Source: a virus. From it: a DNA stretch of 64,000 bases. Position 1 is the first letter of the stretch. Each line of letters opens with the position of its first letter. Positions 1,374 through 48,925 of this stretch are shown here, in pieces. The translations under genes were made by a program, and so were the position numbers. The stretch is taken from the UHGV virus genome UHGV-0038498. One strand, given 5' to 3'. The notes below the pieces were generated by a model. The model saw only the letters and a list, made by a program, of their open reading frames with translations. It was not told the origin of the DNA and searched no databases.

Positions 1374-1919
1374 ATGAGAAAAGCACTACTCGCTGGTCTA
1401 TTGGCCATTTCAATGATGGCACATAGCTCCGAGCATACTTTCAGTAATGTCCAACTCGATAACATGCGTTACGCATATCAATTCGGGGAACAATTTTCTA
1501 AGGATGGAAAATATAAAACACACAAAAATATCCATAAGAGCGGATTGGGTCATATAATGGCTGCTATTTTATGGCAAGAAAGCTCTGCCGGAGTTAATTT
1601 AAAATCTAAACCAAAGCATCATGCCTATGGAATGTTCCAAAATTATTTGCCGACCATGCGAGCAAGAGTTAAGGAACTTGGTTATAATATGACCGATGCT
1701 GAAATAAAAAGAATGTTGAATAAACGGTCCAATTCAGCTTCCTGGGCGTACATTGAACTTTCTTATTGGTTAAATATACATAAGGGCGATATAAGAAAAG
1801 CAATATCCTCTTATAATTCGGGATGGAATGTTAAAGCAGGTTCTAAATATGCTTCTGAAGTCCTAGAAAAGGCTAATTACCTTAAAAATAATAAACTTTT
1901 GGAAATAGTAAATGACTAA
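1374..1919 (+). CDS. secreted lytic transglycosylase-like protein (SLT motifs), T4 vs.1-like
   Basis: N-terminal signal peptide; E-S (WQESSAG), GMFQ and YNSG motifs typical of SLT domain. Confidence 0.7.
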   Translation: MRKALLAGLLAISMMAHSSEHTFSNVQLDNMRYAYQFGEQFSKDGKYKTHKNIHKSGLGHIMAAILWQESSAGVNLKSKPKHHAYGMFQNYLPTMRARVKELGYNMTDAEIKRMLNKRSNSASWAYIELSYWLNIHKGDIRKAISSYNSGWNVKAGSKYASEVLEKANYLKNNKLLEIVND

Positions 1920-2253
1920 AATTTTGGTTTTATGTATAGGATTAATTTCATTTTCTGCGTTAGCAGATACATCATATACTGAAATTAGAGAGTATGTAAA
2001 CCGTACTGCCGCGGATTATTGTGGGAAAAATAAAGCATGCCAAGCTGAATTTGCGCAGAAATTAATATATGCATATAAAGACGGAGAAAGAGATAAATCA
2101 AGCAGATACAAAAATGATACATTGTTAAAACGATATGCTAAAAAGTGGAATACTTTAGAATGTTCAATTGCGGAGGAGAAAGATAAAGCCGCTTGTCATT
2201 CAATGGTTGACCGTTTAGTAGATTCTTATAATCGAGGATTGAGTACTAGATGA
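1912..2253 (+). CDS. small secreted protein (113 aa), position of T4 vs
   Basis: ORF with signal-peptide-like N-terminus (LISFSALA); synteny. Confidence 0.55.
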   Translation: MTKILVLCIGLISFSALADTSYTEIREYVNRTAADYCGKNKACQAEFAQKLIYAYKDGERDKSSRYKNDTLLKRYAKKWNTLECSIAEEKDKAACHSMVDRLVDSYNRGLSTR

Positions 2254-2729
2254 TTGTAAAATATATCAAGGGCGATATTGTCGCCCTATTTCTTCAAGGT
2301 AATATTATTGCGCACGGGTGCAATTGCTTCCACACAATGGGCTCTGGCGTAGCAGGTCAATTAGCAAGAGCCTATCCCAAAATTTTAGAAATAGATAAAA
2401 CCACTACCGAGTACGGTTCTCGTGATAAATTAGGCGATATGTCTATTGTTTTTAAACATAGTCCTACAGGATTTGGTATATGCTATAACCTGTATACGCA
2501 ATACGAACCGGGTCCTAATCTTGATTATGGTGCTTTAGTAAACTGCATGATAGAATTAAATCTACAGGCAGAAACCCTTTTGTTTAAACCAGTAATTTAC
2601 ATTCCACGCATAGGTTGCGGTATTGCTGGTGGTGATTGGGATAAGGTTTCTAAATTAATCGACATGTTTACTCCTGATATTGATTTAATAGTGGTGGATT
2701 ATGAAAGTACATTACCCGCATCCGTTTGA
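2250..2729 (+). CDS. macrodomain protein, TARG1/DarG-like putative ADP-ribosyl hydrolase
   Basis: 159 aa; motifs GDIVAL..IAHGCNCFHTMGSGVAGQ and IPRIGCGIAGGDWDKV align to TARG1/OARD1 blocks. Confidence 0.65.
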   Translation: MIVKYIKGDIVALFLQGNIIAHGCNCFHTMGSGVAGQLARAYPKILEIDKTTTEYGSRDKLGDMSIVFKHSPTGFGICYNLYTQYEPGPNLDYGALVNCMIELNLQAETLLFKPVIYIPRIGCGIAGGDWDKVSKLIDMFTPDIDLIVVDYESTLPASV

Positions 2730-2913
2730 TCCTAAAAACAAAGTGGAAATTATTCGTCAATGGGAACGCATTTGCCGTACTAAATGCCCAATTAATAGTC
2801 CACATGATGTAAATAAAGACTATATTGGAACATTCGTTGAATATACCTTTATTGATAAGAAAGGTCGTAAACAACACGTAGAAGAATATTGCTTAAAGGT
2901 TACATGGTTATGA
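2701..2913 (+). CDS. hypothetical protein (70 aa)
   Basis: ORF track; overlaps neighbours. Confidence 0.45.
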   Translation: MKVHYPHPFDPKNKVEIIRQWERICRTKCPINSPHDVNKDYIGTFVEYTFIDKKGRKQHVEEYCLKVTWL

Positions 2914-3116
2914 GCCAAACTAGTATTCTTAAAAATGCTCATTGTGAAAAGTGTAAATGGCCGGTTGTTTTTGCTTTATGTAATGATGAAATGGCTTGTG
3001 ATTTCGATTATTGGTGCTATTGTTCTAATAAAGGATGCATCAATCATAAAGGTGAAGGATTTTATTCAGGATTTTATCCTTATCCTGATTTCGTTAAAGA
3101 AGGTAAACCAAAATGA
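2904..3116 (+). CDS. Cys-rich small protein (putative Zn-binding)
   Basis: 8 Cys in 70 aa (CEKCKW..CNDEMAC..CYCSNKGC); ATG at 2904/2910, track start 2889 is TTG. Confidence 0.5.
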   Translation: MVMSQTSILKNAHCEKCKWPVVFALCNDEMACDFDYWCYCSNKGCINHKGEGFYSGFYPYPDFVKEGKPK

Positions 3117-3289
3117 ATAGTTTTGAGCTACAATATGAAGTGTTACGTGAACTTGATAATTTGATTGAACTAGCTGTTAATAAAGGTTTTGCCATTGGAA
3201 TTGGCCAAAAAGATACTGATCATTTAACTATGGAAATATTTAAGCAAAAGCGAATTATTTTAAAACTTTTGGGGATTGACATATTGTGA
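3113..3289 (+). CDS. hypothetical protein (58 aa)
   Basis: ATG overlapping previous TGA (ATGA); below track size cutoff, hand-translated. Confidence 0.4.
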   Translation: MNSFELQYEVLRELDNLIELAVNKGFAIGIGQKDTDHLTMEIFKQKRIILKLLGIDIL

Positions 3290-3471
3290 GCCTAAGCAAA
3301 GAACAAAAAGACAGACTGTTTTCTCTTATTCATGAAGTTATGGATAAAAACAATGAATTGGAAAAAGTTTGTGATGAATGCGGTCCTTTTAATACCGACG
3401 AATACGAAGAACTGTGTAAAGATTTCGACGATAAAGAACAAGAACTTATTGATTATATAAATTCCTTATGA
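3286..3471 (+). CDS. hypothetical protein (61 aa)
   Basis: ORF track; GTG start overlapping preceding stop. Confidence 0.45.
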   Translation: MSLSKEQKDRLFSLIHEVMDKNNELEKVCDECGPFNTDEYEELCKDFDDKEQELIDYINSL

Positions 3472-47702: not shown

Positions 47703-48326
47703 ATGATTATTAATCTTGCAGATGTTGAACAGTTATCTATAAAAGCTGAAAGTGTCGATTTTCAATATGATATGTATAAAAAGGTCTGTGAAAAATTTAC
47801 TGACTTTGAACAGTCAGTTCTTTGGCAATGTATGGAAGCCAAAAAGAATGAAGCTCTTCATCAGCAGTTGAATAAAATCGTTAAAAAGCATTTAACTAAA
47901 TCACCTTATCAGCTATATCGTGGTATATCAAAATCTACAAAAGAACTCATTAAAGATTTACAAGTCGGAGAAGTGTTTTCAACGAACAGAGTAGATTCAT
48001 TTACTACTAGTTTGCATACAGCATGTGGTTTTTCTTATGTTGAATATTCCACTGAAATAATATTTCGCTTAAAAACTGATAAAGCTTTTAATTACTCTGA
48101 CCATATCAGCGATATTATACTTTCTTCTCCTAATACTGAGTTTAAGTATACATATGAAGATACTGATGGATTAGATTCAGAACGTACTGATAACTTAATG
48201 ATGATTGTACGTGAACAAGAATGGATGATTCCAATTGGAAAGTATAAAATAACTTCTATTTCAAAAGAAAAATTACACGATTCGTTTGGAACATTTAAAG
48301 TGTATGATATTGAGGTAGTTGAATGA
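47703..48326 (+). CDS. modB: ADP-ribosyltransferase ModB
   Basis: 207 aa; R-S-E motifs (LYRGISK, FSTNRVDSFTTS, REQEWMIP); matches T4 ModB length. Confidence 0.75.
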   Translation: MIINLADVEQLSIKAESVDFQYDMYKKVCEKFTDFEQSVLWQCMEAKKNEALHQQLNKIVKKHLTKSPYQLYRGISKSTKELIKDLQVGEVFSTNRVDSFTTSLHTACGFSYVEYSTEIIFRLKTDKAFNYSDHISDIILSSPNTEFKYTYEDTDGLDSERTDNLMMIVREQEWMIPIGKYKITSISKEKLHDSFGTFKVYDIEVVE

Positions 48327-48925
48327 AATATTCAGCAATGCAATTAAAAGATTTTAAAATCAAATCAATGGATGCATCTGTGCGTGCTTCTATTCGTGAA
48401 GAATTACTTTCTGAAGGATTTAATTTATCCGAAATTGAACTTTTAATTCATTGTATTACTAATAAGCCAGACGATCATTCTTGGTTAAATGAAATAATCA
48501 AATCTCGTTTGGTTCCAAACGATAAACCTCTTTGGAGAGGTGTTCCAGTTGAGACTAAACAGGTGTTAAATCAAGGAATTGATATTATTACATTTGATAA
48601 AGTAGTATCAGCTTCATATGATAAAAATATAGCTCTACATTTTGCTTCTGGATTAGAATACAACACACAAGTTATTTTTGAATTCAAAGCTCCTATGGTG
48701 TTTAATTTCCAGGAGTATGCTATAAAAGCTCTACGTTGTAAAGAATATAGTCCAAGTTTTAAGTTTCCAGATAGCCATCGCTATCGTAATATGGAATTAG
48801 TTTCAGATGAACAAGAAGTAATGATACCAGCTGGAAGTGTATTTAGAATTGCGGATAGATATGAGTATAAAAAGTATTCAACATACACTATCTATACTCT
48901 TGACTTTGAAGGATTTAATTTATAA
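48323..48925 (+). CDS. modA: ADP-ribosyltransferase ModA
   Basis: 200 aa; R-S-E motifs (LWRGVP, VVSASYDK, DEQEVMIP); paralogue of ModB. Confidence 0.75.
   Translation: MKYSAMQLKDFKIKSMDASVRASIREELLSEGFNLSEIELLIHCITNKPDDHSWLNEIIKSRLVPNDKPLWRGVPVETKQVLNQGIDIITFDKVVSASYDKNIALHFASGLEYNTQVIFEFKAPMVFNFQEYAIKALRCKEYSPSFKFPDSHRYRNMELVSDEQEVMIPAGSVFRIADRYEYKKYSTYTIYTLDFEGFNL

What the first reader, a model, noticed from the sequence alone, without database searches (positions are those of the whole stretch)
2250..2729. TARG1/DarG-type macrodomain (putative ADP-ribosyl hydrolase) encoded in the vs-tk interval
The 159-aa product carries GDIVAL...IAHGCNCFHTMGSGVAGQ and IPRIGCGIAGGDWDKV, which line up with the GDLF...[15 protein letters not shown] and MPRIGCGLDRLQWENV blocks of TARG1/OARD1-type macrodomains (the family that includes bacterial DarG) as I recall them. 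The same genome encodes two ModA/ModB-type ADP-ribosyltransferases (47703-48925). A phage-borne eraser could tune the phage's own ADP-ribosylation of host proteins, or reverse DarT-type ADP-ribosylation of phage DNA as an anti-defence function. I am not aware of an established function for this gene in T-even phages.
Basis: partly seen in the sequence, partly recalled or inferred. Interest (0 to 1): 0.6.

Follow-up and report, generated by a model that had tools for sequence, protein, structure and literature searches.

The report
T-even phage anti-DarT macrodomain (tk.4/adfM)

Summary

The gene sits between vs and tk.3, so it is the syntenic orthologue of T4 tk.4. A November 2025 preprint found tk.4 to be the only T4 gene needed on DarTG2-expressing hosts and named it adfM.

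Three nuances:
- This is a divergent allele, 58% identical in protein to T4's. It lies in a sharply bounded cassette within a backbone about 95% identical to T4, and it has not been tested.
- The family has an invariant Gln84 where TARG1 and DarG have their catalytic Lys. That resembles Streptomyces SCO6735, which cleaves thymidine-linked ADP-ribose on DNA without a Lys.
- PhiKZ "AdfM" belongs to a different, truly DarG-like lineage.

Erasing the phage's own Arg-linked Alt/ModA/ModB marks is unlikely. Verdict: already known, modest interest.

The parts
2250..2729 (+). CDS of the 159-aa macrodomain protein, the syntenic orthologue of T4 tk.4/adfM (window-type allele)
   Evidence: ORF. Pfam Macro 32 bits against cut-off 22. 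AF2 model pLDDT 94.3, pTM 0.89. 58% identity, E=7e-70, no gaps, to T4 NP_049723. Same position in annotated T-even records, labelled 'macro domain-containing protein', 'tk.4' or 'phosphatase'.
2250..2253 (+). ATGA overlap: the start codon of the macrodomain gene overlaps the stop codon of vs, an arrangement compatible with translational coupling
   Evidence: Read directly from the sequence. The same arrangement is annotated in T4, T6, Dhakavirus and Kanagawavirus.
2269..2287 (+). GC-rich hairpin AGGGCGAT-ATT-GTCGCCCT within codons 7-13, at the 5' edge of the allele swap; role unproven (possible attenuator or terminator)
   Evidence: Terminator-like scan hit. 8-9 bp RNA stem in both the window and T4. 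Annotated as a rho-independent terminator in OL631480. Conserved in T4, T6 and Dhakavirus, lost in Kanagawavirus. Regional fold z is only -1.3.
2313..2327 (+). Codons for H22-G23-C24-N25-C26 (the 'HxCNC' motif). N25 aligns with the catalytic-site Asn of DarG and with PhiKZ AdfM N23; by the BT1257 proxy it corresponds to SCO6735 N27
   Evidence: H22, G23, N25 and C26 are invariant in 110 of 110 family members. Profile alignment to DarG, PhiKZ and BT1257. PhiKZ N23A and SCO6735 N27S impair activity. The motif is shared with Poa1p 'IHSCNC'.
2340..2354 (+). Codons for G31-S32-G33-V34-A35, macrodomain loop 1 (phosphate/distal-ribose loop)
   Evidence: G33 and A35 are invariant. Aligns with TARG1 'GAGIA' and DarG 'GKGIA'.
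2487..2501 (+). Codons for N80-L81-Y82-T83-Q84. Q84 occupies the position of the TARG1 Lys84 and the DarG catalytic Lys
   Evidence: N80, Y82 and Q84 are invariant in 110 of 110 members. Profile alignments pair 'NlYtQ' with TARG1 'YLITK', DarG 'NFPTK' and BT1257 'NMIGQ'. SCO6735 Gln85 is essential at the equivalent position.
2604..2639 (+). Codons for P119-W130 (PRIGCGIAGGDW), macrodomain loop 2 (diphosphate-binding). A126 occupies the position of the TARG1 catalytic Asp125
   Evidence: P119 and W130 are invariant; I121, G122, G124, G127 and G128 are at least 90% conserved. Aligns to TARG1 'PRIGCGLDRLQW'. T4 has the unusual GAGIGKGNW here.
2288..2757 (+). Divergent cassette relative to T4, an allelic replacement covering the body of the macrodomain gene and the first ~55 nt of tk.3
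   Evidence: Nucleotide identity to T4: vs 95.1%, 2250-2287 100%, 2288-2729 58.7%, above 90% again from 2758. The same region is 98% identical to Ec_MI-02, which carries the window-type allele.
2701..2729 (+). 29-nt overlap between the 3' end of the macrodomain gene and the start of tk.3. It encodes a short C-terminal tail (last 4 residues pLDDT below 50) that T4's 155-aa protein lacks
   Evidence: ORF table. T4 annotation shows only a 4-nt overlap. pLDDT below 50 for residues 156-159.
1912..2253 (+). Context: vs (valyl-tRNA synthetase modifier), immediately upstream
   Evidence: PHROG 1256 E=8.6e-40; annotated records.
2701..2913 (+). Context: tk.3 homologue, immediately downstream
   Evidence: PHROG 2008 E=4.2e-41; annotations.

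Best explanation
[quoted passage not shown] It is the orthologue of T4 Tk.4/AdfM. It lies in the tightly packed, same-strand vs-tk gene block that T4 classifies as early. The hydrolase removes ADP-ribose that a host DarT2-type toxin attaches to thymidine in single-stranded phage DNA, so replication can proceed on DarTG2-positive hosts. In effect it is an orphan functional analogue of the DarG antitoxin.

The chemistry is probably the lysine-independent route described for Streptomyces SCO6735. An invariant Gln (Q84), held in place by an invariant Asn (N25), positions the distal ribose for water-mediated cleavage. This differs from the Lys-dependent mechanism of TARG1 and DarG.

Shown here: the ORF, the macro fold, the class, the active-site residues, the synteny with T4 tk.4, and the allele swap. 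Taken from the literature: the T4 knockout phenotype and the SCO6735 biochemistry. Inferred: that this 58%-identical allele does the same job, that it works by hydrolysis rather than by binding DarT, and that it is expressed early.
For: - Orthology: the gene order vs - this gene - tk.3 ... tk is the same as in T4, T6, Dhakavirus and Kanagawavirus. The protein is 58% identical to T4 Tk.4 over its full length without gaps. All 12 family-invariant residues are shared with T4.
- Function of the orthologue: tk.4 was the single significant hit in a T4 transposon library grown on DarTG2. A clean knockout sensitised T4 to DarTG2, and the gene was named adfM (bioRxiv 10.1101/2025.11.20.689424). T4 lacking adfA and adfN stays DarTG2-resistant, so another factor was already expected (PMC11825919).
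- Mechanistic precedent: SCO6735 has Gln85 in place of the Lys. Its Q85A and N27S mutants are inactive. It cleaves dT-ADPr but not dG-ADPr on DNA and rescues E. coli from DarT. Thymidine de-ADP-ribosylation was proposed as a unifying activity of the ALC1-like class (PMC9411070). The window protein has Q84 and N25 at the aligned positions, both invariant in 110 of 110 homologues.
- Independent precedent that phages use orphan macrodomains against DarT2: PhiKZ gp104 removes DarT2-made ADP-ribose from DNA in vitro (PMC13309987).
Against: - No experiment exists for this allele. It is only 58% identical to the tested T4 protein.
- For T4 itself only genetics and a structure comparison are reported. 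Enzymatic removal of ADP-ribose is described only as 'likely'.
- The protein lacks the catalytic Lys of DarG and TARG1 and the Asp of TARG1.
- It also lacks two features highlighted for SCO6735/BT1257: the longer 'mobile loop', and Val/Ile at the position where this family has an invariant Gly23. The SCO6735 mechanism may therefore not transfer exactly.
- Curated DarG models give only 27-28 bits.
- Other anti-DarT factors have active and inactive alleles (AdfA, AdfB), so a divergent allele could differ in target range.
- Early expression is inferred from T4 knowledge. No convincing promoter was found directly upstream of the gene.
Confidence: 0.72

Rival explanations
1. It neutralises DarT2 mainly by binding the toxin (interaction-inhibition, a stoichiometric antitoxin mimic) rather than by hydrolysing ADP-ribosyl-DNA. 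The allele diversity would then reflect matching to different DarT2 variants.
For: Catalytically dead SCO6735 Q85A still inhibits DarT in vitro, more strongly than DarG or TARG1 mutants. Phage AdfB and AdfA act by binding DarT. The differences between the window and T4 alleles cluster outside the active-site motifs, at residues 51-79, 101-113 and 131-155, and the cassette is swapped as a unit.
Against: Every residue lining the predicted ADP-ribose site is invariant across 110 homologues at 38-97% identity. That pattern argues for conserved catalysis or ligand binding rather than toxin-specific surfaces. The protein has no counterpart of the DarG C-terminal DarT-binding domain; it is a single 159-aa domain. 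The two modes are not mutually exclusive.
Confidence: 0.12
2. It is a small-molecule enzyme as database labels suggest: a Poa1p-like ADP-ribose-1''-phosphate phosphatase or O-acetyl-ADP-ribose deacetylase, or a degrader of ADP-ribose-derived immune signals or toxic metabolites. Any DarTG2 effect would be secondary or specific to the T4 allele.
Against: Poa1p differs at the key positions, with Ser at the Q84 column and Cys at the N80 column. The 'phosphatase' name is a transferred annotation, not a test. In T4, tk.4 was the only significant hit on DarTG2, a DNA-modifying system. The Gln/Asn pair matches the DNA-active SCO6735.
Confidence: 0.1
3. It erases or tunes the phage's own protein ADP-ribosylation or RNAylation by Alt, ModA and ModB.
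For: The same genome encodes ModB- and ModA-like ADP-ribosyltransferases at 47703..48925. Macro domains and ARTs co-occur in large phages.
Against: Alt, ModA and ModB are R-S-E ARTs that modify arginine, for example RNA polymerase alpha Arg265 (PMC8120803). The substrates reported for ALC1-like macrodomains in the papers read are Asp/Glu-linked protein ADP-ribose and thymidine-linked DNA ADP-ribose. From my own knowledge, arginine-linked ADP-ribose is removed by the unrelated ARH/DraG fold. The genes are about 45 kb apart and not co-located. The T4 screen tied tk.4 specifically to DarTG2.
Confidence: 0.04

Closest known systems
T4 Tk.4 / AdfM (anti-DarT factor Macrodomain; NP_049723; bioRxiv 10.1101/2025.11.20.689424)
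   Same: Same genomic slot (vs - tk.4 - tk.3 ... tk), same size class (159 vs 155 aa), and 58% identity over the full length with no gaps. All family-invariant residues are shared, including H22, N25, C26, D49, N80, Y82, Q84 and W130. Both give the same weak score against DarG models.
   Different: 42% of residues differ, and nucleotide identity within the cassette is 58.7% against about 95% in the flanks. The window allele keeps the family-consensus loop 2 (GCGIAGGDW), whereas T4 has GAGIGKGNW. The window protein has a 4-residue disordered C-terminal tail that overlaps tk.3. Only the T4 allele has a phenotype on record.
SCO6735 (Streptomyces coelicolor) and BT1257 (Bacteroides thetaiotaomicron): Gln-type ALC1-like macrodomains (PDB 5E3B, 2FG1/2AFC)
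   Different: The phage family lacks the roughly 5-6 residue longer 'mobile loop'; BT1257 shows a 6-residue insertion relative to the family profile. It has an invariant Gly23 where BT1257 has Ile and SCO6735 Val25. It carries the HxCNC motif and an invariant D49 that BT1257 does not share. Identity is only about 26-29%.
DarG antitoxin macrodomain (Mtb 5M3I, T. aquaticus 5M31/5M3E, T. africanus 7OMU) and PhiKZ gp104 'AdfM'
   Different: No catalytic Lys: 'LYTQ' here against 'FPTK'. No C-terminal DarT-binding domain and no DarT partner gene. DarG HMM scores are 27-28 bits against 133-138 bits for PhiKZ gp104. PhiKZ gp104 matches Mtb DarG at E=9e-25, but matches the window protein only at pairwise E about 1e-3 over 23 residues. 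The two proteins called 'AdfM' are therefore separate lineages.
Human TARG1/OARD1 (PDB 4J5R/4J5S)
   Same: Top Foldseek hit (E=1e-9, TM 0.71-0.82), with profile E=3.6e-16. TARG1 also cleaves dT-ADPr on DNA.
   Different: The Lys84/Asp125 catalytic dyad is replaced by Gln84/Ala126. Identity is about 20-22%.
Yeast Poa1p (ADP-ribose-1''-phosphate phosphatase; PDB 6LFQ-6LFU)
   Different: Poa1p has Ser at the Q84 column and Cys at the N80 column. It has a long insertion before loop 2 (180 aa). Its known substrates are small molecules.

Membership tests
Macro domain superfamily (Pfam PF01661) | Matches the curated Macro HMM above its gathering score | tested here: met
   32 bits against cut-off 22; residues 22-136 cover profile positions 2-117 of 118.
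Macro domain superfamily (Pfam PF01661) | Three-layer alpha/beta/alpha macro fold | tested here: met
Macro domain superfamily (Pfam PF01661) | Binds ADP-ribose | not testable with these tools
   Both ligand loops (GSGVA, GCGIAGG) and the GD motif are present and conserved. Binding itself needs an experiment.
ALC1-like macrodomain class (TARG1 / DarG / SCO6735 / Poa1p) | Nearest neighbours by profile and by structure are members of this class and not MacroD-, PARG- or viral-type macrodomains | tested here: met
TARG1/OARD1 subfamily | Catalytic Lys84 / Asp125 dyad | tested here: not met
   Q84 aligns with K84 and A126 aligns with D125. Q84 is invariant in 110 of 110 homologues.
DarG antitoxin (NCBIfam NF048014; PADLOC PDLC02990) | Catalytic Lys (T. 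aquaticus K80) in the FPTK motif | tested here: not met
   'NLYTQ' aligns with 'NFPTK' of the Mtb and T. aquaticus DarG chains.
DarG antitoxin (NCBIfam NF048014; PADLOC PDLC02990) | Scores as DarG with curated models; two-domain architecture with a C-terminal DarT-binding domain | tested here: not met
   NCBIfam 27.7 bits against cut-off 250; PADLOC 27.5 bits, covering only model positions 3-144 of 329. The protein is a single 159-aa domain.
DarG antitoxin (NCBIfam NF048014; PADLOC PDLC02990) | Encoded in an operon with a DarT toxin | tested here: not met
   The neighbours are vs and tk.3, with no ART adjacent. The only ARTs found were ModB and ModA at 47.7-48.9 kb, the only other region scanned.
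SCO6735/BT1257 Gln-type subclass of ALC1-like macrodomains | Gln at the TARG1/DarG Lys position, with a conserved Asn that positions it | tested here: met
   Q84 and N25 are invariant. BT1257 'NMIGQ' and 'HICN' align to the same columns. The roles of Gln85 and Asn27 are described in PMC9411070.
SCO6735/BT1257 Gln-type subclass of ALC1-like macrodomains | Mobile loop about five residues longer than in TARG1 and DarG | tested here: not met
   BT1257 carries a 6-residue insertion ('skglpp') relative to the phage family profile right after the Gln. The feature is described.
SCO6735/BT1257 Gln-type subclass of ALC1-like macrodomains | Val/Ile two residues before the Asn (SCO6735 Val25, proposed to position the catalytic water through its backbone) | tested here: not met
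   This family has an invariant Gly23 where BT1257 has Ile. Because the proposed role is backbone-mediated, the functional meaning of the difference is unclear.
T4 Tk.4/AdfM orthologous group | Same genomic position between vs and tk.3 in a T-even genome | tested here: met
T4 Tk.4/AdfM orthologous group | Full-length homology and shared invariant residues | tested here: met
   58% identity, E=7e-70, no gaps. All 12 invariant columns are shared.
T4 Tk.4/AdfM orthologous group | Required for plating on DarTG2-expressing hosts | not testable with these tools
   Reported only for the T4 allele. It needs a deletion or complementation experiment for this allele.
Poa1p-like ADP-ribose-1''-phosphate phosphatases | Close sequence relationship including the residues at the catalytic strand | tested here: inconclusive
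   The N-terminal HxCNC/GxGIA block is shared (E=1.6e-9), but Poa1p has Ser and Cys where this family has the invariant Q84 and N80. Phosphatase activity cannot be tested here.

The most novel reading that the evidence does not exclude
The T-even 'AdfM' proteins form a third, phage-centred branch of the ALC1-like macrodomains. They combine the Poa1p-type HxCNC motif with the SCO6735-type catalytic Gln, but have neither the DarG/TARG1 Lys nor the SCO6735 long loop. They would have been recruited from orphan bacterial macrodomains rather than from DarG antitoxins. The sharply bounded allele cassettes that circulate in otherwise ~95%-identical T-even backbones (window type in ~313 deposited genomes, T4/T2 type in ~224) would encode different specificities: different DarT2 variants, other base-ADP-ribosylating toxins, or toxin binding in addition to hydrolysis. 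The allele a phage carries would then be a host-range determinant.
Probability: 0.2. Interest if true: 0.5.

Novelty: already known. Interest (0 to 1): 0.3.

Why it matters
DarTG systems stop phages by ADP-ribosylating their DNA. Knowing which phage genes undo this matters for predicting host range and for choosing therapeutic phages.

For this window the main result is a clarification. The 'phosphatase' or 'hypothetical protein' between vs and tk in hundreds of T-even genomes is the adfM orthologue.

Two points could still be useful to specialists. First, the tested T4 protein and this equally common allele differ by 42% within a swapped cassette, so results from T4 should not be assumed to transfer. 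Second, T-even AdfM is a Gln-type enzyme related to SCO6735, BT1257 and Poa1p. It is not a DarG-type enzyme like PhiKZ AdfM, so the shared name covers two lineages and probably two catalytic mechanisms.

Tried and rejected
- The CmdTAC paper (mRNA ADP-ribosylation defence against T-even phages) was checked for a phage macrodomain counter-measure. It has none; macrodomains appear only in its reference list.
- ICP1 AdfB, the 'antitoxin mimic', is a 77-aa DarT binder and not a macrodomain.
- The Migulavirinae/Thoeris preprint mentions macrodomains, but they are the host ThsA effector. It is not relevant.
- I looked for the companion NADAR eraser adfN (T4 gene 30.3) in this window. By T4 map position it lies outside the region covered, so it could not be checked.
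- The hairpin at 2269-2287 was considered as an intrinsic terminator. The stem is real, but the number of terminator-like sites equals the shuffle expectation (2 found against 2.4), and the regional fold z is -1.3. I report it only as an aside.
- No convincing sigma-70-type promoter lies directly upstream. Promoter-like sites number 14, against 18.5 expected from shuffles.
- Two sandbox scripts failed because locus L002 was not synced; DNA alignment was used instead.
It was re-run without that row.
- The 'phosphatase' annotation was considered and downgraded (see rival explanations).
- The minus-strand ORF 2668..2877 (69 aa), which overlaps the gene's 3' end, was treated as spurious. It was not tested: no homology search was run on it and no annotated record was checked there.

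Full report
OBSERVATION. The window contains an ATG-initiated ORF at 2250..2729 on the + strand. Its start codon overlaps the stop codon of the upstream gene (ATGA). Its last 29 nt overlap the start of the next ORF. The window is a T-even (Tequatrovirus-like) phage genome: the first 6 kb are 97.7% identical to Shigella phage KNP5 and 96-97% identical to many T4-like phages, in reverse orientation to the deposited records. Annotated relatives give the gene order regB (site-specific RNase) - vs.1 (SLT-domain protein) - vs - this gene - tk.3 - small ORFs - tk. They label this gene 'macro domain-containing protein', 'phosphatase' or 'tk.4'. The two ORFs at 47703..48326 and 48323..48925 match the phage 'RNA polymerase ADP-ribosylase' family, so the ModB/ModA context claim is correct.

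ACTIVE SITE. Across 110 homologues (38-97% identical to the window protein), twelve positions are invariant: H22, G23, N25, C26, G33, A35, D49, N80, Y82, Q84, P119 and W130.
- Profile alignments place Q84 exactly at TARG1 Lys84 and at the Lys of the DarG 'FPTK' motif.
- A126 falls at TARG1 Asp125.
- N25 falls at the catalytic-site Asn of DarG and at PhiKZ AdfM N23.
- BT1257 also has Gln at the Lys position.
- Poa1p has Ser there and Cys at the N80 column, although it shares the N-terminal HxCNC motif.
- Relative to BT1257, the phage family lacks a 6-residue insertion right after the Gln. It has Gly where BT1257 has Ile two residues before the Asn.

The protein thus fails the defining catalytic features of TARG1 and DarG. 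It meets the Gln/Asn feature of the SCO6735/BT1257 subclass but not that subclass's long 'mobile loop' or Val/Ile25. Curated DarG models score it at only 27-28 bits (cut-off 250), against 133-138 bits for PhiKZ gp104.

RELATION TO T4. T4's own record places tk.4 (155 aa, 'phosphatase; contains A1pp phosphatase motif') in the same slot. The window protein is 58% identical to it over 154 residues without gaps (E=7e-70). At the DNA level the pattern is a cassette swap. Identity to T4 is 95.1% across vs and 100% over the first 38 nt of the gene. It falls to 58.7% across 2288-2729 and is back above 90% from about 2758, inside tk.3. Ec_MI-02, which carries the window-type allele, is 98% identical through the same stretch. 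Both alleles are common in deposited genomes. About 313 records hold the window type at 90% identity or more. About 224 hold the T4/T2 type at 90% or more, and 159 more hold it at 80-90%. Overall, 2,790 phage records from many genera encode a recognisable homologue. The window allele matches the family consensus in loop 2 (GCGIAGGDW). T4's is the unusual version (GAGIGKGNW).

WHAT IS KNOWN.
(a) A November 2025 preprint (HIDEN-SEQ, 10.1101/2025.11.20.689424) infected DarTG2-expressing E. coli with a T4 transposon library and found one significant hit, tk.4. A clean knockout sensitised T4 to DarTG2. The authors noted structural similarity to M. tuberculosis DarG and named the gene adfM. They state that enzymatic removal of ADP-ribose from DNA 'seems likely', but report no biochemistry.
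(b) Earlier work showed that T4 lacking adfA and adfN (the NADAR eraser, gene 30.3, specific for DarT1-modified guanine) is still DarTG2-resistant. It predicted a further factor (PMC11825919).
(c) PhiKZ gp104, also named AdfM, removes DarT2-made ADP-ribose from a TNTC oligonucleotide in vitro, and its N23A mutant is impaired (PMC13309987). That protein is a genuine DarG relative (E=9e-25 to 5M3I, 'FPTK' Lys present). It is only marginally similar to the window protein in a direct comparison. The two 'AdfM' proteins are therefore different lineages within the same class.
(d) SCO6735, the Gln-type enzyme, cleaves dT-ADPr but not dG-ADPr on DNA faster than DarG or TARG1, and it rescues E. coli from DarT. 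It loses all activity on Q85A and nearly all on N27S. It also inhibits DarT by binding when catalytically dead. Its authors propose a water-mediated, lysine-independent mechanism and suggest that thymidine de-ADP-ribosylation unifies the class (PMC9411070).

HOW IT MOST LIKELY WORKS. The product of 2250..2729 is probably an orphan eraser that strips DarT2-type ADP-ribose from thymidines in single-stranded phage DNA. It would use a Gln84/Asn25-dependent, lysine-independent mechanism.
- Shown here: fold, class, residues, synteny and the allele swap.
- From the literature: the T4 phenotype and the SCO6735 chemistry.
- Inferred: transfer of function to this allele, hydrolysis rather than toxin binding, and early expression.
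I put this at about 0.72.

Rivals:
- Toxin binding as the main mode (0.12). SCO6735 precedent and allele differences that lie outside the active site favour it. The invariance of the ligand site argues against it as the sole mode.
- A small-molecule role such as Appr-1''-p phosphatase or degradation of ADP-ribose-derived signals (0.10). Database labels, the Poa1p similarity and the proposal of Iyer et al. favour it. The residues at the catalytic strand and the T4 screen argue against it.
- Erasing the phage's own Alt/ModA/ModB marks (0.04). These ARTs modify arginine, which is not among the linkages reported for this macrodomain class in the papers read.

ORIGIN. A bacterial homologue (Pelagimonas, 40% identical) sits among housekeeping genes with no DarT nearby. 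The family's nearest solved relatives are orphan macrodomains (BT1257, SCO6735) rather than DarG. This is weak evidence that T-even AdfM was recruited from orphan macrodomains and not from a DarG antitoxin.

NOVELTY AND VERDICT. The macrodomain identity has been in the T4 annotation for years, and identical proteins are already labelled 'macro domain protein' in GenBank. The anti-DarTG2 role of the orthologue was published as a preprint in 2025. The finding is therefore a correct rediscovery: already known. Residual interest lies in the untested, equally common divergent allele and in the Gln-type active site. Interest is 0.3.

DEAD ENDS. See 'tried and rejected': the CmdTAC, ICP1 AdfB and Migulavirinae papers; the hairpin as a terminator; sandbox and job refusals.

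Noticed in passing
window 2269-2287 (+): A perfect 8-9 bp GC-rich hairpin (AGGGCGAT-ATT-GTCGCCCT) lies inside codons 7-13 of the macrodomain gene. This is exactly where identity to T4 drops from 100% to about 59%. One GenBank record annotates it as a rho-independent terminator. It is conserved in T4, T6 and a Dhakavirus despite a diverged upstream flank, but lost in a Kanagawavirus. Statistically it is not above chance: regional z is -1.3, and the terminator count equals the shuffle expectation.
   Followed up: partly
window 2911-3290: About 380 nt carrying two small ORFs (2889..3116, PHROG 2306; 3113..3289, PHROG 3452; both of unknown function) lie between tk.3 and the next conserved ORF. They are absent from T4 but present in Ec_MI-02, where the second ORF has itself diverged (57-83% nt identity in 30-nt windows). 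This is another indel and allele hot spot next to the macrodomain cassette.
   Followed up: partly
window 2701-2729: The macrodomain gene overlaps tk.3 by 29 nt here but by only 4 nt in T4. The extra C-terminal residues (156-159) are predicted to be disordered.
   Followed up: yes
window 1912-2253 (vs): The adjacent upstream gene vs, translationally overlapped with the macrodomain gene, was the most strongly depleted T4 gene in minimal medium in the same HIDEN-SEQ preprint. Compared with T4, the window's vs has a 6-nt deletion in its signal-peptide-like N-terminus.
   Followed up: no
literature, relating to window 2250-2729: A 2026 preprint reports RIL-seq chimeras between the host sRNA ArcZ and the T2 tk.4 mRNA, and describes tk.4 as a 'putative thymidine kinase'. 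That is a misannotation: tk.4 is the macrodomain gene, named only for its position near tk.
   Followed up: no
literature / PhiKZ gp104 versus window 2250-2729: Two independent groups gave the name 'AdfM' to phage macrodomains of different lineages. PhiKZ gp104 is DarG-type (Lys present, 133-138 bits on DarG models). T4 Tk.4 and this protein are Gln-type (27-36 bits). The shared name hides a probable mechanistic difference.
   Followed up: yes
window 47703-48925: ModB-like (207 aa) and ModA-like (200 aa) ADP-ribosyltransferase genes overlap by 4 nt. Both match PHROG 832. They are about 45 kb from the macrodomain gene and probably unrelated to it functionally.
   Followed up: partly
L003 5001-5459 (Pelagimonas phthalicica SOAP01000002.1): A 40%-identical bacterial homologue of the phage macrodomain sits among housekeeping genes (peroxiredoxin, M23 peptidase, tryptophan halogenase-like, U32 peptidase). 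There is no DarT or other ART nearby, so it is an orphan like SCO6735 and BT1257.
   Followed up: partly
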